This document shows, piece by piece, positions 1 through 10,420 of a DNA stretch of 64,000 bases (positions are counted from its first letter, which is position 1; each line of letters begins with the position of its first letter). The translations under genes and the position numbers were made by a program. A model generated the notes under the pieces. That model saw only the letters and a program-made list of their open reading frames with translations, was not told where the DNA came from and made no database searches. The DNA is from an uncultured Verrucomicrobiae bacterium (GTDB taxonomy: Bacteria > Verrucomicrobiota > Verrucomicrobiia > Limisphaerales > Palsa-1400): NCBI GenBank assembly GCA_963707025.1, contig CAVPOM010000004.1, positions 640,001 through 704,000 of the forward strand. Direction: 5' to 3'.

Positions 1-2277
1 TCCGGAGAGCGTGTTCCTGTCAGCGGCCTGCTGATCGCGAAGGCCAGGCAGTTCGCTCAGTATTTGCAGAATGCGGGGTCCCGTGCGTTTGTGAGGCTCC
101 GCGAGGTCCGCCGGCTGGTCGAGCCGCCGGCCGAAACCGTGTCCTTTGTGGTCACCACCGAGCGACCACAGAAGCTGGCTCATCCAATTGAGCGCGAGGA
201 GCCGTTGGCTGCGACATTTCCCGAGGGCGACCACAGGGTGCCGGAGGTGATCAGCCTCCGCCGCGACTTCCCAAATGTGCCACACTTGAACCTCGGGATT
301 AACGAGCTGCCAAAAAGTCTCTGCCTATACGACCAGCCCTACGAGAACGTGAGGCTGACCTGGACCCCAGCCGAGTTTCTCTATCGGATACACTTCTGGC
401 TTTCCGGAACCGCCACAGGAACGCTGCACGGGGAGGATCAGCCACTGGAGCCGCTCCTGGCCGGCTCCGGGTTTCGACTGGTTCTGCCCGCCGACTTCGA
501 CGTATCCAATCCCAACCAAAAGCCACGGCCGTTCAACCTCTTTCGGGTTGAATCCGTGGAGGGCCAGTTCACACTGCGCGCTGTCTGGCAGGCGCCAGGG
601 CAGAAGATTGATTCGGTCGCGGCCGTGTTCCGGTGTCAGCCGCAGCAGCACGGTGTCATCAACCACCAGCCACTAAACCTCCAGCAATTGCAAGAACTCT
701 GCCTCCGCGTCGGTTTGAACATTGCCGAGGAGCTTCGCCAGACTCTCCGCCAATGGTTTCTGGACAAGCCCCAGGAGGACATCCTTCAGGCCAAAATCGT
801 GCTCATCCTGATCCTCCCAAAGACCAGGCATCCGGGAGGACAGGTTGAGTCGGTGGAGACCCGGGCGTTCGTCACGAGGGGGGTCTCCGTGGAAGAGCTG
901 GGGCGGCGCCTCGGGTTGTTCGACCGGCACGGGGGCACCGCAGGGATGATCATCGGCAACCCCAGCATTCCGGGCAAGACGCTGGAAAGCGTGGAGATCT
1001 GTCTGCTCCAGGTTCTCAACGCTCTCTCCCCGGCCAGCGCGGCGGTCCTCAACGGCATTAAGCCCTGCCAGGTTCGCATCGTCGCCATCGGCACCGGGGC
1101 CCTCGGCTCGCAGGTCTATAACAACCTTGCCCGCGCGGGCTATGGAAGGTGGACGCTCATCGACAATGACGTGCTCCTGCCGCACAACTGCGCCCGGCAC
1201 TTCCTTGGAGATTGGGCCGTAGGCACGAACAAGGCCCAAACGATGGCGCAGGTGGGGAAGATCACCCTAAACGATCCCGCCATCGCAGAGTTCATACCCG
1301 CCGACGTTCTCCAGCCGGCGCAACACGCGGAGGCCGTCAATAAGGCCCTGCAAAGCGCGGAATTGGTGCTGGACCTCTCCGCCTCGGTGGCGGTTTCCCG
1401 GCATCTGGCCCAAGTCGAAACCAAGCCGCGCACGTTTTCGGCTTTCCTCGCTCCAAAAGGGGACGGGCTGGTCATCGCGGCCGAGGACAACCAGAGGACA
1501 GTCCGCCTTGATTGGCTGGAGATGCTGCACTACCGGGCGGTTCTGAACGAGCCTGCGCTCGCAGACAGCCTGCAGCCCAAAGAGGCCCGCATCCGCTATG
1601 GAAATTCCTGTCGCGACATCAGCACGGAAATGGCGCAGGACGACACCGCGCTATGGGCCGCAATCGCCAGCAAGGCGGTCAAACAGATGAGGGAGGATGC
1701 CGGCGCGGCGCTGAGGATTTATCGCGCCGACGAACGCGGCCTCACAAGCCTGATTGAACCCAAGGTCTTGGAGGCCAAAACCCTTCGGTTTGGGGACTGG
1801 GTCATTCGCATGGATGGCTGGCTTTTGGAGAAGCTGGCCAGGCTCAGAGACGCCAGATTGCCCAATGAAACCGGGGGAGTCTTGCTTGGCGCATTCGACA
1901 CCTACCAGCGAGCGTGTTCCGTCGTGGACGTCCTTCCCTCTCCTCCCGACAGCACCGAGTGGCCGACCTCCTACATCCGTGGATGTGAAGGCCTGGCCGC
2001 CAAGGTCCAGGAAGCAAAAAGGCTCACCCTGGGCCAGATCAGCTACGTCGGGGAATGGCACTCCCACCCACGAGGCGCCTCCATCCATCCCAGCTCCGAC
2101 GATCTGCGGGCTTACGGATGGCTCACGAGCCATATGCATGCCGAAGCACTGCCCGGCATCATGCTCATCATCGGCGACAGGCGGGAAATCTGCCTCGTTT
2201 CTGCCGAGCCGAGATCACCGAGAACCGGACCGAAGATCAATACCAAAGCCCGGGCCCTGGCTGGTGGCTGTAGTTGA
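1..2277 (+). CDS. Prokaryotic E2-like + ThiF/E1 + JAB/MPN isopeptidase triple-fusion protein (5' end truncated by window edge)
   Basis: Frame is open from base 1. E2-like segment FPNVPHLN...SLCLY (candidate catalytic Cys); ThiF motifs IVAIGTGALGS and LIDNDVLLPHNCARH with downstream Cys in YGNSC; JAB motifs PNETGGVLLG and GEWHSHP...PSSDD. Confidence 0.88.
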   Translation, partial: SGERVPVSGLLIAKARQFAQYLQNAGSRAFVRLREVRRLVEPPAETVSFVVTTERPQKLAHPIEREEPLAATFPEGDHRVPEVISLRRDFPNVPHLNLGINELPKSLCLYDQPYENVRLTWTPAEFLYRIHFWLSGTATGTLHGEDQPLEPLLAGSGFRLVLPADFDVSNPNQKPRPFNLFRVESVEGQFTLRAVWQAPGQKIDSVAAVFRCQPQQHGVINHQPLNLQQLQELCLRVGLNIAEELRQTLRQWFLDKPQEDILQAKIVLILILPKTRHPGGQVESVETRAFVTRGVSVEELGRRLGLFDRHGGTAGMIIGNPSIPGKTLESVEICLLQVLNALSPASAAVLNGIKPCQVRIVAIGTGALGSQVYNNLARAGYGRWTLIDNDVLLPHNCARHFLGDWAVGTNKAQTMAQVGKITLNDPAIAEFIPADVLQPAQHAEAVNKALQSAELVLDLSASVAVSRHLAQVETKPRTFSAFLAPKGDGLVIAAEDNQRTVRLDWLEMLHYRAVLNEPALADSLQPKEARIRYGNSCRDISTEMAQDDTALWAAIASKAVKQMREDAGAALRIYRADERGLTSLIEPKVLEAKTLRFGDWVIRMDGWLLEKLARLRDARLPNETGGVLLGAFDTYQRACSVVDVLPSPPDSTEWPTSYIRGCEGLAAKVQEAKRLTLGQISYVGEWHSHPRGASIHPSSDDLRAYGWLTSHMHAEALPGIMLIIGDRREICLVSAEPRSPRTGPKINTKARALAGGCS

Positions 2278-2583: not shown

Positions 2584-5500
2584 ATGCAAAAGGACTCCGG
2601 CCATTTGCTTTTCTCGCCCAGCGACCTCGTCCGTTATCTGGCCTCCCCGTTCGCATCATGGATGGATCGCTACCACCTGGAGAATCCGGGTGCGGTCACT
2701 CCGGACGAGCCAACCGCAGATGAGAAACTTATCGCGCAGACGGGCGATCAGCACGAGCGCACGGTGCTCGATGAATTCAAGTCATCGGCCGCCAGCCCGG
2801 TCGAGATTCCGAAAAACGATCGCGCCGCCGCCCGGAAAATGACGCTTGCGGCCATCCGTGCAAAAGCCCCGATTATTTACCAAGCTGCCTTGGAAAACGG
2901 GCGTTTCACCGGCTTCGCAGACTTTCTCACGCTCGACGCGTCCGGGAGGTATCAGGTTTGGGACACCAAGCTCGCCCGCTCGCCCAGGCCGTATTACGCC
3001 ATTCAGCTTTGCTGCTACTCGGAAATGCTGGCCGCCGCGACCGGCGAGCGGATGCCCCAAAAATTCGGCATTATTCTCGGCAGCAAGGACAGGGTTGAAT
3101 TCCGCGTCGAGGACTTCATCCACTACTACCACCGTATTATGGGGAGCTTCCTCGCCATGCACGACAGCTTCACCGGGAAAATGGCGGAACGCCCGGAGCC
3201 CCTCCCGCGAGCGGACCACGGCCGCTGGACCTCCCACGCGGAGAAGTTCTTCAACGACTCCGACCACATCGTGAGGGTCGCCGGAATCAGTGTAGGCCAA
3301 ATCAAGAAGCTGAAAACGGCCGGCATTGCAACGGTGGCGGGACTTGCCGCAGCCTCGGGCAAGTCGGTTCACAAACTCTCCGGCGACTCGTTGGAAAAAC
3401 TCGTCGCCCAGGCTCGTCTTCAGTGCCAGACGCGCGCCGATCGGATCGAGGACCCAGATGCCACACCGCGATACGAAGTCTTGCCCCACATCGGCATCAA
3501 CAGCGAAGCCGTGGGTCTCGCTGCCCTTCCGCCGGATCATCCGGCCGATGTTTTTTTCGACATGGAGGGCTACCCGTTGGTGTCCGGGGGACTGGAATAC
3601 CTGTTTGGTGTCGGCTCGCGGAACGTGCAGCCGGGTATATTCAACTTCGCGGACTGGTGGGCGCACGACCGCGACGAAGAGAAGCTCGCGTTCGAGGGTT
3701 TCGTGGACTGGGTATTCAATCGGTGGAAACATAACCCCGGGATGCACATCTACCATTACGCCGCCTACGAGGTCATTGCTGTTCGGCGGTTGAGCACCCG
3801 CCACGACACCCGTCAGGAGGAGGTGGACGAGCTTCTCCGGAACAAGGTGTTCGTGGATCTCTACCAAATCGTCCGTCACGGTGTGCGCATCGGCGAGGAC
3901 AGCTACTCCATCAAGACAGTCGAGCGCATTTACCGACCGAAACGCGCCACCGAGGTCGCCACAGCCGCCGAGTCCATCGTTCAATACGCCCGCTGGATCG
4001 AGAGCAAGCAGGCCCGCGATTGGAACATCAGCCCCATCCTCAAGGGCATCCGAGACTACAACGAGGACGATTGCAAATCCACGGCGGAACTGTTGCAGTG
4101 GTTGCGCAAGTTGGCTGGTGAACACAAGATCACCGCTGCACGCCCAGGTTCTGTCTCCACCCCGGCGGCGCCGCCGGTGTTGCCGCCGCAGGTCATCGCG
4201 AGGCAGGACACCGCGATAAAACTCCGCAAGCAGGGCGACTCGGTCGCGGTGGTTCTTGCTGACTTGATTGACTTTCACCGCCGGGAAGAAAAGCCCATGT
4301 GGTGGCGGATGTTTGACCGCGCCGTAGCTACGCCCGAGGATCTCCGCGACGACCCCGGCTGCATCGAAGGCGTCCAGGCCGCAGGGTCTCCCGTGCCCGA
4401 AAAACAATCGTCCGTGCAAACCTACCGCTTCGATCCGTCGCAGGAATGCAAACTTGCCGCGGGCGACAAGTCCAAGGTGATGTTTACCCACAACCTGGAG
4501 GCGAAATTCACACTGGCGAGGCTTGATGCGTCCAAGGGCGAACTGCAACTCAAGATTGGCAACAAAGCGTTGACCGAGAAATTCAGGGGTGCTTTCCCCC
4601 GGCATGGCTCACTGCTTCCGGATGAGTATGTGCCGGCGGCGGCGATCCAGGCGGCGTTGAACGAGGTTGCCGCCCGGCACTTGTCAAAAAGCCTCCACGC
4701 GCCGGTGGCGGCACTCTTGAATCGAGTGCCAACCGCGACGTTGCTGCAAAACGCCGGCGAGTCCGCAGGCAACGCCGCCATCCGCATTACCCGCTTGATG
4801 GCCGGTGGATGCCTTGTGGTCCAAGGCCCGCCAGGAACCGGCAAGACCCACACAGCCTCGCGTGTAATCACCGCGCTTCTCGCTGGGGGCAGGAAGGTCG
4901 GCATCGCCTCCAACAGCCACAAGGCGGTGGTGAATCTTCTCATTGCCTGCGGCGACGCAGCCAGGGAGGGCGGTGGCCTTCTTCGTGGAATCAAGGTCGG
5001 TGGTGACGCCGAAGGGCCGTTGTTTTCGTCCAACCCCGGCGTGAAATTCATCAAAGACACCGGCGACGCGTATTCTGCTTACACGGGTGGCGCCGTAGGT
5101 GGAACGGCCTGGCTCTTTGCCCGGCCCGAATGGGAAGGCGCCCTCGATTTCCTTTTCATTGATGAAGCCGGCCAGGTGTCTCTGGCCAACGCCGTCGCCA
5201 TGGCGCGGTGCGCGAAGAACCTTGTCCTCCTCGGTGACCAGATGCAACTTGAGCAACCCGTGCAGGGCTCCCATCCCGGCGATGCCGGGCTCTCCGCCCT
5301 GCAATACGCTCTCAAGGACACGAACGCCAGCCGGCCCGATTCGCCCGTCTTCCACGCCGTGGTGCCACCGGACCACGGGCTTTTTCTTGGCGAATCGCAC
5401 CGGATGCACCCGTCGGTCTGCCGCTTCATCTCGGAGAGCATTTATGAGGGTCGGCTCGGTTCACATCCCGACTGCGCCAGGCAGAAGATCATTGTCCCGC

Positions 5501-6009
5501 CAGGCACCAACGGCCTCATCACCCGGGAGGCCGGGATTGTCTTCAGCGGCGTCGAGCACGATGGAGACATCCAGCAGAGCGACAAGGAAGTTGAACGGAT
5601 CATGGTGATCTACGGCGAGCTGATGGGGCGCCCCTTCACCGACAAGCATGGCATCACAAGGCCGCTGGCGATCGAGGACTTTCTTTTCATCGCCCCCTAC
5701 AATGCCCAGGTCCGCGCTCTTCAGGCCGCTCTCCCAGTTGCCGCCCGCGTCGGCAGCGTGGATAAGTTTCAAGGGCAGCAAGCCCCCGTCTGCGTTCTTT
5801 CCCTCTGTTCCAGCTATGGCGAATACGGCACTCGCGGGCTTGCCTTCATTCTCGACCGCAACCGGATTAACGTCGCCGTCTCTCGCGCCCAATGCCTCGC
5901 GGTGGTCGTCGCAGACCCGCGCATCGCCAGCGCGGCCGCTGGTTCCATTGACGAAATGATGCTCATCAACCTGTTGTGCAAGCTGACCGGATCATATGCC
6001 GCCAACTGA
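2584..6009 (+). CDS. TM0106-family RecB-like nuclease + RNase H-like domain + SF1 (DNA2/UPF1-like) helicase
   Basis: N-terminal SPSDL; DFL...WDTKLA...IQLCCY (RecB-type PD-(D/E)xK); FFDMEG and YNEDDC (RNase H-like); helicase motifs QGPPGTGKT, FIDEAGQ, LLGDQMQL, RMHP, SVDKFQG, NRINVAVSRA. Confidence 0.9.
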   Translation: MQKDSGHLLFSPSDLVRYLASPFASWMDRYHLENPGAVTPDEPTADEKLIAQTGDQHERTVLDEFKSSAASPVEIPKNDRAAARKMTLAAIRAKAPIIYQAALENGRFTGFADFLTLDASGRYQVWDTKLARSPRPYYAIQLCCYSEMLAAATGERMPQKFGIILGSKDRVEFRVEDFIHYYHRIMGSFLAMHDSFTGKMAERPEPLPRADHGRWTSHAEKFFNDSDHIVRVAGISVGQIKKLKTAGIATVAGLAAASGKSVHKLSGDSLEKLVAQARLQCQTRADRIEDPDATPRYEVLPHIGINSEAVGLAALPPDHPADVFFDMEGYPLVSGGLEYLFGVGSRNVQPGIFNFADWWAHDRDEEKLAFEGFVDWVFNRWKHNPGMHIYHYAAYEVIAVRRLSTRHDTRQEEVDELLRNKVFVDLYQIVRHGVRIGEDSYSIKTVERIYRPKRATEVATAAESIVQYARWIESKQARDWNISPILKGIRDYNEDDCKSTAELLQWLRKLAGEHKITAARPGSVSTPAAPPVLPPQVIARQDTAIKLRKQGDSVAVVLADLIDFHRREEKPMWWRMFDRAVATPEDLRDDPGCIEGVQAAGSPVPEKQSSVQTYRFDPSQECKLAAGDKSKVMFTHNLEAKFTLARLDASKGELQLKIGNKALTEKFRGAFPRHGSLLPDEYVPAAAIQAALNEVAARHLSKSLHAPVAALLNRVPTATLLQNAGESAGNAAIRITRLMAGGCLVVQGPPGTGKTHTASRVITALLAGGRKVGIASNSHKAVVNLLIACGDAAREGGGLLRGIKVGGDAEGPLFSSNPGVKFIKDTGDAYSAYTGGAVGGTAWLFARPEWEGALDFLFIDEAGQVSLANAVAMARCAKNLVLLGDQMQLEQPVQGSHPGDAGLSALQYALKDTNASRPDSPVFHAVVPPDHGLFLGESHRMHPSVCRFISESIYEGRLGSHPDCARQKIIVPPGTNGLITREAGIVFSGVEHDGDIQQSDKEVERIMVIYGELMGRPFTDKHGITRPLAIEDFLFIAPYNAQVRALQAALPVAARVGSVDKFQGQQAPVCVLSLCSSYGEYGTRGLAFILDRNRINVAVSRAQCLAVVVADPRIASAAAGSIDEMMLINLLCKLTGSYAAN

Positions 6010-6420: not shown

Positions 6421-7270
6421 GTGGGTCGCTCTTAAAAGGCAATCGAGGTTACCCTCTAGGGCCACGCGTGGAAAGTGTACCCGATGAAGTGCCGCAACAA
6501 GACACTTTACCGTGTCGTCCACCAAGTGAATAGCGAACGGCGCCCCAAAAATTTTAGCTTGCTGGCTGATGCCAAAGCTGACGCCAAGAATCTCATCAAG
6601 GAAATTTACACTCAAGGTGACAGCAAAATCCACCTGGCCGCCGATGAAAAGCTCGATTGGCAGGCTGCAATGAATGTTTTGAAACGAGCGGGCATCCGGT
6701 AAAGCCTTGAGACGATTTGCCGCCAGTATGCCGATCTGTGCGCCGCCGCAGGCGGGGCCGGACTCTTGACCGACATCGTGCGCAAGCATGTCTCCAGCGG
6801 CCCGGCGAAACACACGCCGATCCAGCTTGGCAGGCTCAAAGTTATCTTCAATTCGACGATGGAGAGCGAGGGCCGTTCGACGAGGTATGTCCAAGTGCTA
6901 AAATCCTATTGTGGAACTTTCGTGCGGGAGATCGGGCCGGACACCATGACTGACCAAATCACGCGTGAGATGATCCAAGAGTTTTTGAATGACCGGAAGG
7001 TTTGCCCCCGTGGAAAACTCAACTTTGCGAGGGCTATTCGTGTCATGTCGGTTTTCGGCAAACGTCAGCGGTGTGTGCCAGAGGATTGGGCGGAAATCGA
7101 CCACCTGACCCTGCCCTTGGTCAAGGAGGGAACGGTGCTGACCTATTCGCCTGATGACCTAAAAAGGCTGCTGGCCGCCTCTCCTGACACGTTTATTCCA
7201 TGCCTCGCCCTGGCCGCTTTTGCGGGAATGCGGTCGGCAGAAATTGAGCGCATTGGATGGGACAATATGC
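6421..7270 (+). pseudogene. Degraded tyrosine recombinase/integrase
   Basis: ORFs 6475-6702 and 6766-7440 share one frame, broken by in-frame stops at 6433, 6457 and 6700. Box I LALAAFAGMRSAEIERIGWD is present; similarity stops near 7270, with no HxxR or catalytic Tyr. Confidence 0.75.
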
Positions 7271-7451
7271 CCGCGCTACGGCAGCGACATGATGCCCCTT
7301 GCGCTGAAGTTTTTCCTGCAAGTGCCATGATGGCAGTGGCGGCGGCGCAATTCACGCCAACCTCGAAACCCTGGATGCAGGGATTGAGCCGACTTGGCGC
7401 TGCGCGTGGTTGGTGGTCGAGGCGGGTGTCGTTGCCCTGATGCTCGCCTTG

Positions 7452-8782: not shown

Positions 8783-8989
8783 GTGACCGTGAAAAAATTC
8801 GATATAGCCAAGTGGTTAGGCGCAGCCGATGCTGGCCGCTATCTGGGCTATAGTCGAGACTGGGTGGAGCGCCGGGCGCTGGAATGGCAGGATAAGCCGG
8901 CACCAGACCGTATCCGCTACAAAAAAGCCCGTTCAGACGGACGGCGCCGGTACTTCGTCCCCGACCTTGAGGCCCAGCTTTGTGAATAA
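8783..8989 (+). CDS. Small HTH protein, excisionase/recombination directionality factor-like
   Basis: 68 aa, basic; WLGAADAGRYLGYSRDWVERR HTH and GRRRYF wing; lies beside an integrase. Confidence 0.65.
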   Translation: MTVKKFDIAKWLGAADAGRYLGYSRDWVERRALEWQDKPAPDRIRYKKARSDGRRRYFVPDLEAQLCE

Positions 8990-10186
8990 TTTTGCCCAGG
9001 CGTAGTCCTTCTTTTCCGCGGGCAGCCACTTCAGCTTCGGACCTTTTCCATGCAACCAGTGTTGCGGTATGACCCCGTAAGATTCCCGCAACGTCTCCAG
9101 TCCTCCCACCTGATTCAATTCTGCCGCGGTTTGGCTGTCATGGACTCCATTGCTACGGTTTACCAAAACGTAAAACCCCCGGCCGCCGTGTGATGTCAGT
9201 TTCTTGGTCAGCCGTCCGTCCTTGAACATCAATTCCAGCCGCTGCGTCAGGACCCCCTCCCCGACATGATCTGAGCTTCCGCGGCCCCCTGGAAAATACC
9301 AAGGGGTATCTGGGTACCGTTTTTTTGACCAAGCGTCCATTGCTGCGAGCAGCACTTGCCCGTCTGGATGCAAATAAATGCACGGGTTGTCCGCGTTTTT
9401 CTCCGCGCGTCGGACATACATGGAGTCCCCTTGGATGAAGCCGGGCTGTTCAGTGTCCTTTGCGTCGCGGCGCAGGGCCAGGGTTTCCCCAGTCCTCGTG
9501 CCAAAGAAATTCTCCCAAAGGAATTGCCAGCCAATCACCTCGCTGCGCTTATCCTCAAACAGCAGACCAGCGACGGTATGCACCTCCTCAGTGGAACTGC
9601 ACGCGACCTCTTTGGTTTTCCGGGCTTCGCTCGGGCTGTAATACCGGTCCCGTTTGGAAATAGGATTGACGATCAGCTTTTCCTGCCGCACGTTCCAATC
9701 CAACGCTTTCGAGAGGGTATTCAGTTCGAGGTCGGTAGTCCGGGCTCCGCCTGATCCCGCCTTGACGTTTTTCTTTCGCCAGGCGTGGTATTTATCCAAC
9801 AGGGCCGGGGCAAGTTCATCAACATATTTCCCTTCAAAAAACTCCTCGAGGCGAGGGACGGCATCTGCCTCGGTACGGCTGTGCTTCTCGCCAGGCTTTC
9901 GCATCTTGCCGCGCCGGATCGAAGCGAACTCGGCCTCTTCGTATGTTGACAGCGCGTCCGTGATCTTCAACCTGGGCAACTTCTCTTTCGCTGGCTCGAC
10001 CCCAAGTTTCGCTTCAGATTGTTTCCGTTCGTAGGCGTTTCGGAGGTCAGTGGCGATCGCCTTCCGCGTGGTCTCCAACGATTGATACGTATCTCTGCCG
10101 TCGGTGCAAATCCGGATGTAAAACATTTTGGAGCCAGTGTGCTGGTAAAGCATCCGCTCCCCGGAGACCTTGATGAGCTTTTTCAT
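8933..10186 (-). CDS. Tyrosine recombinase / island integrase
   Basis: 417 aa; N-terminal arm-binding-like region; GTRTGETLAL (Arg), SHGGR (HxxR), ESYG (Tyr); immediately downstream of a tRNA 3' end. Confidence 0.85.
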   Translation of the reverse strand: MKKLIKVSGERMLYQHTGSKMFYIRICTDGRDTYQSLETTRKAIATDLRNAYERKQSEAKLGVEPAKEKLPRLKITDALSTYEEAEFASIRRGKMRKPGEKHSRTEADAVPRLEEFFEGKYVDELAPALLDKYHAWRKKNVKAGSGGARTTDLELNTLSKALDWNVRQEKLIVNPISKRDRYYSPSEARKTKEVACSSTEEVHTVAGLLFEDKRSEVIGWQFLWENFFGTRTGETLALRRDAKDTEQPGFIQGDSMYVRRAEKNADNPCIYLHPDGQVLLAAMDAWSKKRYPDTPWYFPGGRGSSDHVGEGVLTQRLELMFKDGRLTKKLTSHGGRGFYVLVNRSNGVHDSQTAAELNQVGGLETLRESYGVIPQHWLHGKGPKLKWLPAEKKDYAWAKLFTKLGLKVGDEVPAPSV

Positions 10187-10331
10187 GCGTCGTGTTTTAT
10201 GGACGGGTATTATACGGGTATTTTAGCTTTTCGTCAACGCTTTATGTTCGGCAGGGTTCCAGCTTTGCTTCAGGTCTGTTACTTAAACACCATGTTTACA
10301 AGTGGTTATGATGTGTATATTCCCGCGGAAG

Positions 10332-10409
10332 TGGTGCACACCAGATGGAGTTGAACCATCAACCTTCTGATCCGTAGTCAGATGCTCTATCCAATTGAGC
10401 TATGGGTGC
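10332..10409 (-). tRNA. tRNA-Arg (anticodon ACG), CCA encoded
   Basis: Reverse complement reads GCACCCA-TA-GCTC...GAGC-A-TCTGA-CTACGGA-TCAGA-AGGTT-GATGG-TTCAACT-CCATC-TGGTGTGC-ACCA. The acceptor 3' strand has one extra base. Confidence 0.95.
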
Positions 10410-10420
10410 AATACCCTGAT

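What the first reader, a model, noticed from the sequence alone, without database searches (positions are those of the whole stretch)
1..2277. Single-chain E2-E1-JAB ubiquitin-like conjugation enzyme in an integrase island
Seen: E2-like, ThiF/E1 and JAB motifs in one ORF, each with its candidate catalytic residues. Established: type II CBASS encodes E2-E1 (Cap2) and JAB (Cap3) separately, and Bil systems encode E1, E2 and JAB separately; triple fusions have been noted bioinformatically but are poorly characterised. No ubiquitin-like or cyclase gene lies downstream. Inference: the conjugated substrate is encoded upstream of the window (cyclase, metallo-beta-lactamase or other effector), making this a self-contained write-and-erase defence enzyme.
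Basis: partly seen in the sequence, partly recalled or inferred. Interest (0 to 1): 0.75.

Follow-up and report, generated by a model that had tools for sequence, protein, structure and literature searches.

The report
Known 6A-MBL defence, swappable membrane partner
The three-in-one attach-and-detach enzyme is real but belongs to an already named anti-phage system (6A-MBL), where it likely attaches the neighbouring metallo-beta-lactamase-fold enzyme to targets by that enzyme's glycine tail; the less ordinary part is a third gene, a membrane protein here and a phospholipase in many relatives, that is likely the system's killing arm.

Summary
Observation confirmed. The ORF starts 30 nt before the window (768 aa) and carries E2, E1 and JAB domains with invariant catalytic residues. 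It scores 629 bits on NCBIfam 6A-MBL_cap2_3 (cut-off 320). The gene upstream is the 6A-MBL MBL-fold protein, not a cyclase. This is the Iyer 2006 class 6a operon, named 6A-MBL; the scan noted it 12 times on other DNA. The MBL ends in SPRVG. P[RK]xG lies in 63 of 68 partner tails, 26 tail motifs carry short extensions, and 0 of 23 second MBLs have it, so the MBL is likely the conjugated moiety. In this assembly the MBL has one extra base, absent from 7 of 7 public runs that span it, and 14 of 130 conserved genes are frameshifted genome-wide: likely an assembly error. The operon lies in a 59.6-kb element at tRNA-Arg. Added here: 50 of 53 fully flanked relatives carry a small membrane protein or a patatin beside the core, never both within 2.3 kb, with repeated swaps on the tree. 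That suggests a CBASS-like exchangeable effector slot, untested. Known system; modest interest.

The parts
1..2277 (+). E2-E1-JAB fusion (6A-MBL cap2_3); true start 30 nt before the window (C4:639971), 768 aa
139..504 (+). Prok-E2_A domain; His at 283-285, catalytic Cys at 322-324
   Evidence: Pfam; invariant in 65 of 65
1069..1704 (+). E1/ThiF domain; GxGxxG at 1090-1107, invariant Cys at 1609-1611 in the loop that aligns with Cap2 structures
1825..2115 (+). JAB/JAMM peptidase; Glu 1867-1869, HxH 2059-2067, Asp 2101-2103
1..1 (+). Placeholder coordinates: this gene lies wholly upstream of the window, at C4:638867-639974 (L001 16867-17974). 6A-MBL MBL-fold protein, ComEC-like, ending SPRVG; split in this assembly by one extra base at C4:639561
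1..1 (+). Placeholder coordinates: this gene lies wholly upstream of the window, at C4:638138-638809 (L001 16138-16809). 223-aa membrane protein, weakly Csx27-like; candidate effector
   Evidence: PADLOC Csx27 E 1.3e-6; 3 hydrophobic segments by the script threshold
2584..6009 (+). TM0106/RecB-like nuclease fused to an SF1 helicase; neighbour in the island, not a conserved part of the system
   Evidence: not among recurring neighbour families
8933..10186 (-). Tyrosine-recombinase-like gene beside the tRNA; likely the element's integrase
   Evidence: no Pfam or PHROGs hit; Atlas look-alikes at 0.98-0.99 include tyrosine recombinases
10330..10410 (-). tRNA-Arg(ACG) at 10336-10410; 55-bp att core at 10330-10384, repeated (54 of 55) at C4:590752-590805

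Best explanation
This is a copy of the known 6A-MBL anti-phage system, in which the E2-E1-JAB fusion likely conjugates the neighbouring MBL-fold enzyme through its C-terminal glycine and likely acts with an adjacent membrane protein as effector. Shown: domain order, invariant catalytic residues, family membership of both genes, the conserved PRxG tail, and the recurring third gene. Inferred from type II CBASS and Bil biochemistry: the E1 domain adenylates the tail glycine and forms a thioester at Cys547, hands the MBL to E2 Cys118, and E2 transfers it to an amine on an unknown target; the JAB domain trims tail extensions to expose the glycine and removes the MBL from conjugates, holding the system off. 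Inferred more weakly: on infection conjugation outruns removal, the primed ComEC-like di-metal phosphodiesterase becomes active, and its product or its conjugate switches on the membrane protein (a patatin phospholipase in other copies) to arrest or kill the cell. In this assembly the MBL reads as broken, likely through a sequencing error.
For: NCBIfam NF058523 629 bits versus cut-off 320; both MBL pieces hit NF058524 and tile profile positions 1-235 and 238-346, the first piece alone above cut-off. Class 6a operon described in PMC1779556 (passages). [quoted passage not shown] P[RK]xG in the last 30 aa of 63 of 68 partner MBLs against 2.4% in shuffled tails; 40 end at the motif and 26 extend 2-19 aa; 0 of 23 second MBLs in the same loci have it; 5 of 5 plasmid copies have PRAG. 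The terminal glycine is an invariant column in 57 MBLs. The tail is unstructured in the model (pLDDT under 50 for 352-368, mean 91.4). BilA has the same extension-then-trim pattern (10.1101/2023.09.26.559546, passages). Best structural match is the ComEC beta-lactamase-like domain 9ic4. Third gene.
Against: No biochemistry here; the conjugation target and the MBL substrate are unknown. The primary papers (van den Berg 2024, Ledvina 2023 Nature, Makarova 2019) were not held, so the tested gene content is not seen. NCBIfam returned models for only two 6A-MBL genes, none for the membrane protein, and I recall 6A-MBL being tested as a two-gene unit. 3 of 53 fully flanked loci have no membrane or patatin gene within 2.3 kb. 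No base rate for membrane-protein neighbours in defence islands was measured. The MBL of this assembly is frameshifted.
Confidence: 0.78

Rival explanations
1. The two-gene core is complete, the MBL itself is the toxic nuclease or phosphodiesterase, and the membrane and patatin genes are separate defence modules that cluster beside it.
For: Only two curated models were hit. Membrane gene plus a second MBL occur together in 10 loci, and L022/L077 membrane proteins match a separate PADLOC candidate, PDC-M48A. In 2 of 2 enterobacterial plasmids the membrane gene lies in the divergent WYL operon. 3 of 53 loci lack either gene nearby.
Against: Patatin and the main membrane family never share a locus within 2.3 kb (0 of 53), most abut the fusion's stop codon, and the enterobacterial membrane protein is 50% identical to ones directly downstream of the fusion in a verrucomicrobial and an archaeal contig.
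Confidence: 0.35
2. The MBL is conjugated directly onto phage proteins, Bil-style, and damages the phage or its compartments instead of priming a host-killing step.
For: 6A-MBL is listed among jumbo-phage defence systems (10.1101/2025.09.30.679545, passage). [quoted passage not shown]
Against: The E2-E1 part is Cap2-like, and Cap2 primes its own signalling enzyme; a recurring membrane-directed third gene fits abortive infection better.
Confidence: 0.2
3. This particular copy is a dead system: the extra base in the MBL gene is a real mutation in this strain.
For: The runs that lack the extra base differ from the assembly by about 1%, so they are other strains. Defence genes are often inactivated (general knowledge).
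Against: 7 of 7 runs that span the site lack the base (4 DNA, 3 RNA); it lengthens a run of A; 14 of 130 conserved genes are frameshifted in this assembly.
Confidence: 0.2
4. The Csx27-like channel, ComEC-like nuclease and conjugation enzyme form a regulated DNA uptake or degradation system, as proposed for Csx27-family operons.
For: Weak Csx27 hit and ComEC-like fold. PMC7642515 reports that Makarova 2019 predicted Csx27 channels for ssDNA in such operons (passage).
Against: A patatin replaces the membrane protein in 18 of 80 loci, which a DNA channel role does not explain; the system is curated as anti-phage.
Confidence: 0.07
5. It is a canonical type II CBASS or Pycsar operon with a cyclase upstream.
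For: PADLOC CBASS E1-E2 and JAB models match weakly (best E 2e-25).
Against: No cyclase among the upstream ORFs scanned; Cap3 model 28 bits versus cut-off 200, 6A-MBL model 629 bits.
Confidence: 0.01

Closest known systems
6A-MBL anti-phage system (class 6a of Iyer, Burroughs and Aravind 2006, PMC1779556; named by van den Berg et al. 2024; NCBIfam NF058523 and NF058524)
   Same: MBL gene directly followed by a single-chain E2-E1-JAB gene; both pass the curated cut-offs; mobile-element location.
   Different: Host is likely outside Proteobacteria (nearest named relatives are mostly Verrucomicrobiota); about 31% identity to enterobacterial plasmid copies; a Csx27-like membrane gene leads the operon; the MBL reads as frameshifted in this assembly.
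Type II CBASS (Cap2 + Cap3 + CD-NTase + effector)
   Same: E2-E1 chemistry with homology to Cap2 structures 7tsq/7to3; JAB eraser; enzyme conjugated by its own C-terminal tail; exchangeable membrane or patatin effector genes.
   Different: JAB is fused; the conjugated enzyme is an MBL-fold hydrolase, not a cyclase; no second messenger is known; two patatins tested did not hit PADLOC models.
BilABCD and Bub systems
   Same: JAB that trims residues after a conserved glycine and reverses conjugates.
   Different: They use a separate ubiquitin-fold protein and separate or differently fused E1 and E2; no ubiquitin-like gene here.
Csx27-family operons with ComEC-like and ubiquitin-system genes (Makarova et al. 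2019; paper not held, known from a citing review and recall)
   Same: Membrane protein of Csx27 likeness beside a ComEC-like MBL and a multidomain ubiquitin-system protein.
   Different: That work proposed DNA uptake; the patatin swap seen here points to an effector role.

Membership tests
6A-MBL | Single chain with E2, E1 and JAB in that order | tested here: met
   Pfam; NF058523 629 bits, cut-off 320, whole profile 1-665
6A-MBL | Adjacent MBL-fold gene of the 6A-MBL family | tested here: met
   NF058524 234.6 bits on the first piece (cut-off 220) and 117.8 on the second; stop overlaps the fusion start
6A-MBL | Intact MBL reading frame | tested here: inconclusive
   Split by one base in this assembly; base absent in 7 of 7 spanning runs of near-identical strains; assembly error-prone
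6A-MBL | Catalytic residues of E2, E1, JAB and the MBL metal site | tested here: met
   the motifs THGDIDH, VHSP, TADS and IPHHCS are present in the window's own MBL pieces
6A-MBL | Anti-phage activity | not testable with these tools
   needs a phage challenge
6A-MBL | MBL tail is conjugated by E1/E2 | tested here: inconclusive
Type II CBASS / Pycsar | CD-NTase or pyrimidine cyclase gene in the operon | tested here: not met
   none among the upstream and downstream ORFs scanned
Type II CBASS | Separate Cap3 gene | tested here: not met
   JAB is fused; Cap3 model 28 bits versus cut-off 200
Bil / Bub | Ubiquitin-fold gene in the operon | tested here: not met
   none recognised among neighbouring ORFs; no such recurring family among ORFs of 90 aa or more in 80 loci; shorter ORFs were not clustered
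Csx27 family (type VI-B accessory) | Sequence match to Csx27 | tested here: inconclusive
   PADLOC E 1.3e-6, 27 bits; one of three other cluster members scanned also hits; no Cas13 or CRISPR search was made

The most novel reading that the evidence does not exclude
6A-MBL is a three-part system built like type II CBASS with the cyclase replaced by a hydrolase: the conjugated ComEC-like MBL makes a new kind of alarm signal, or is itself ligated to the effector, and switches on an exchangeable membrane-attacking gene (several small membrane-protein families or a patatin phospholipase) that current two-gene definitions leave out.
Probability: 0.4. Interest if true: 0.65.

Novelty: new member of a known kind. 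Interest (0 to 1): 0.27.

Why it matters
As a sighting it matters little: the triple fusion was described in 2006, has curated models, and occurs in at least 499 candidate stretches of the species-genome collection and 247 plasmid records. What could matter is the gene slot beside it. If the membrane protein and the patatin are alternative effectors, then a hydrolase, not a cyclase, triggers CBASS-type effectors, which implies an unknown signal or direct ligation to the effector, and it makes the open question of what 6A-MBL conjugates and how it stops phages directly testable.

Tried and rejected
Complex prediction of the E1-JAB part with the MBL: never run (too many chains; queue full), so no evidence either way. 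Fold search by VIA-align was busy; Foldseek ran later. Single-sequence PDB search with the MBL found nothing; the profile did. ESM Atlas gave only unnamed clusters for the membrane protein. Search of 60 relatives: none over the NF058524 cut-off, so no close-genome copy for comparison; many are incomplete. First frameshift count was inflated by antisense ORFs and was replaced; in its reciprocal control (6 of 126) most sites appear by coordinates to be the same breaks in this assembly. RNA contigs of 4 peat metatranscriptomes together cover parts of all three genes and some bridge MBL and fusion, but contigs show neither strand nor level and DNA can be present, so this is not taken as proof of expression. 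Fisher p of 5e-7 for membrane/patatin exclusion ignores kinship and the 2.3-kb limit was my choice; at 3 kb L029 holds both, the membrane gene on the other strand beside a second MBL. A likeness of these patatins to ubiquitin-activated phospholipases is recalled only and was not tested. Papers not held: van den Berg 2024, Makarova 2019, Ledvina 2023 Nature version, Burroughs 2015. Ten searches showed no paper describing an exchangeable third gene, but with those papers and their supplements unseen this is weak. PMC12390725 (passages) held nothing relevant.

Full report
Observation. The frame from window 1 to 2277 is open. The window is G000:C4:640001-704000, so I fetched the upstream DNA. The gene starts 30 nt before the window, in an ATGA overlap with the upstream stop, and encodes 768 aa. 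Pfam finds Prok-E2_A, ThiF and Prok-JAB in that order, each above cut-off. In 65 full-length fusions (query plus 64 of 80 loci) the E2 His95 and Cys108, the E1 glycine motif, Asp388 and Cys537, and the JAB Glu623, His687, His689 and Asp701 are invariant (window-ORF numbering; add 10 for the full protein). The E1 part aligns to Cap2 structures (E 3e-9), Cys537 falling in the loop that I recall holds Cap2's catalytic cysteine. The fusion is not an indel artefact: 117 of the 120 best database hits have all three domains in one chain, and four DNA runs show no indel in its first 2 kb.

What it is. The fusion scores 629 bits on NCBIfam NF058523, 'anti-phage 6A-MBL system cap2_3 protein', cut-off 320. 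The gene upstream matches NF058524, the 6A-MBL MBL-fold protein, in two pieces that tile the profile. [quoted passage not shown] A review (PMC13276650, passages) credits van den Berg et al. 2024 with 6A-MBL as an anti-phage component in Pseudomonas aeruginosa; a preprint lists it among jumbo-phage defences (10.1101/2025.09.30.679545, passages); it is also reported in an Asgard archaeon (PMC13700489, passages). The family is common: 499 of 586 candidate stretches in the species-genome collection and 247 plasmid records. The scan had 12 earlier notes on 6A-MBL in at least 11 other genomes; I had reached this reading before looking.

The conjugated partner. The MBL ends in SPRVG. Of 80 loci, 68 gave an MBL partner end; 63 of these have P[RK]xG in the last 30 residues, against 2.4% of shuffled tails. 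With a looser motif, 40 end exactly at the glycine and 26 run on by 2-19 variable residues. None of 23 second MBL genes in the same loci has the motif, and 5 of 5 proteobacterial plasmid copies have PRAG. A model of the intact relative from L005 is confident (mean pLDDT 91.4) except for the last 17 residues: a free tail. BilA proteins show the same glycine-plus-extension pattern and are trimmed by their JAB (10.1101/2023.09.26.559546, passages), and Cap2 and Cap3 write and erase conjugates of the cyclase tail (10.1101/2022.03.31.486616, passages). PMC11601596 (passages) already states that MBL pathways conjugate their signalling enzymes, so this idea is in print. The MBL's best structural match is the ComEC beta-lactamase-like domain 9ic4 (profile E 3e-7; Foldseek E 2e-14), then the phosphorylcholine esterase Pce: a di-metal phosphoester hydrolase of unknown substrate, with no sign of being a resistance enzyme. 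A complex prediction could not be run.

The broken MBL. In this assembly the MBL gene is split near C4:639561. Contigs of 4 of 4 DNA runs and of the 3 of 4 RNA runs that span the site lack one base there. These are strains about 99% identical, not the source sample. Among 68 related MBLs, 65 are one ORF over the part held. Against a same-genus genome, 14 of 130 conserved genes show a clean frameshift in this assembly. An assembly error is the likelier reading (about 0.8); real inactivation is not excluded.

Setting. The operon lies in a 59.6-kb element bounded by a 55-bp direct repeat of the tRNA-Arg(ACG) 3' end, with a tyrosine-recombinase-like gene beside the tRNA. The element also holds AbiEi/AbiEii, a serine recombinase with ParB/RepB genes, RecD2 and a weak coupling-protein match. 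None of 60 relatives has the MBL above cut-off, as fits a mobile cassette.

The third gene. Upstream of the MBL, on the same strand, is a 223-aa membrane protein with a weak Csx27 match. Clustering all ORFs of 90 aa or more in the 80 loci gave two main recurring neighbours: a membrane-protein cluster that includes this gene, and a patatin phospholipase (Pfam). Within 2.3 kb of the core, 41 of 80 loci have the first, 18 the second, none both, 21 neither, many of those truncated. Among 53 loci with at least 1.2 kb on both sides: 33 membrane only, 12 patatin only, 0 both, 8 neither. Five of those 8 have another small hydrophobic protein directly downstream, giving 50 of 53. On a tree of 65 fusions the patatin label needs 12 changes (at least 8 forced by well-supported branches; shuffled mean 12.8), and close sisters differ, such as L027/L037 and L022/L025. 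In five plasmids picked by hand from the 40 rows listed, three alphaproteobacterial copies have a patatin next to the fusion (one on the opposite strand), and two enterobacterial copies have a 172-aa membrane gene in the divergent WYL operon that is 50% identical to genes directly downstream of the fusion in L008 and L057. Against this: the profiles were built from the same loci, the distance limit was mine, no base rate was measured, 3 of 53 loci have neither gene, 10 loci pair the membrane gene with a second MBL, and I recall 6A-MBL being tested as two genes. Makarova 2019 linked Csx27 proteins to competence and ubiquitin-system genes (title and summary seen in PMC7642515; paper not held), and earlier scan notes mention both add-ons, so neither association is new alone. 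The mutual exclusion and repeated swapping was not found in ten library searches, which is weak evidence given the papers not held.

Mechanism. Most likely: E1 adenylates the MBL's tail glycine, passes it through Cys547 to E2 Cys118 and on to an unknown target; JAB exposes the glycine where there is an extension and removes conjugates. Infection tips the balance, the primed MBL acts, and the membrane protein or patatin arrests or kills the cell. Membership and anatomy are shown; the conjugation steps are inferred from Cap2/Cap3 and Bil; the effector step is my inference at about even odds or less.

Verdict. A real, well-formed member of a known system. Interest 0.27; the effector-slot reading has probability 0.4 and would deserve about 0.65.

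Noticed in passing
G000:C4:590752-650384 (ends at window 10384): 59.6-kb tRNA-Arg-integrated element with 55-bp att repeats; pieces 90-94% identical recur on contigs C5, C8 and C15, so the genome holds a family of related elements.
   Followed up: partly
G000:C4:591100-593690: Long degenerate tandem-repeat region, offsets in steps of about 72 bp, GC near 69%, at the far end of the element, with a similar region on C5:140300-142000.
   Followed up: no
window 2584-6009 (+): 1141-aa TM0106/RecB-like nuclease fused to an SF1 helicase with PADLOC Mokosh-model hits; same position after the fusion in L003, 98% identical DNA.
   Followed up: partly
L001 12408-14287 (+): AbiEi/AbiEii pair about 2 kb upstream of the operon.
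   Followed up: partly
L001 8155-12154 (+): Resolvase, large serine recombinase and two ParB/RepB genes in a row inside the element.
   Followed up: no
L001 14900-15940 (-): 346-aa ORF divergent from the operon, no Pfam or PADLOC hit; sits where relatives often carry a regulator.
   Followed up: partly
19 of the 80 related loci, e.g. L077 3039-4106, L006 4008-4718: HTH and IrrE/ImmA-type peptidase genes in the locus, mostly just upstream of the MBL; recalled as CapH/CapP-like control of defence operons.
   Followed up: partly
window 6766-7440 (+); L001 2508-4043 (-): Two further integrase-like genes, one a fragment, inside the element (PHROGs).
   Followed up: partly
L002 10379-12759 (+): Glycosyltransferase and radical SAM/SPASM genes as cargo in the element, near RecD2.
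   Followed up: no
G000 whole assembly: About 1 in 9 conserved genes is frameshifted against a same-genus genome (14 of 130); split genes in this genome should be read with caution.
   Followed up: yes
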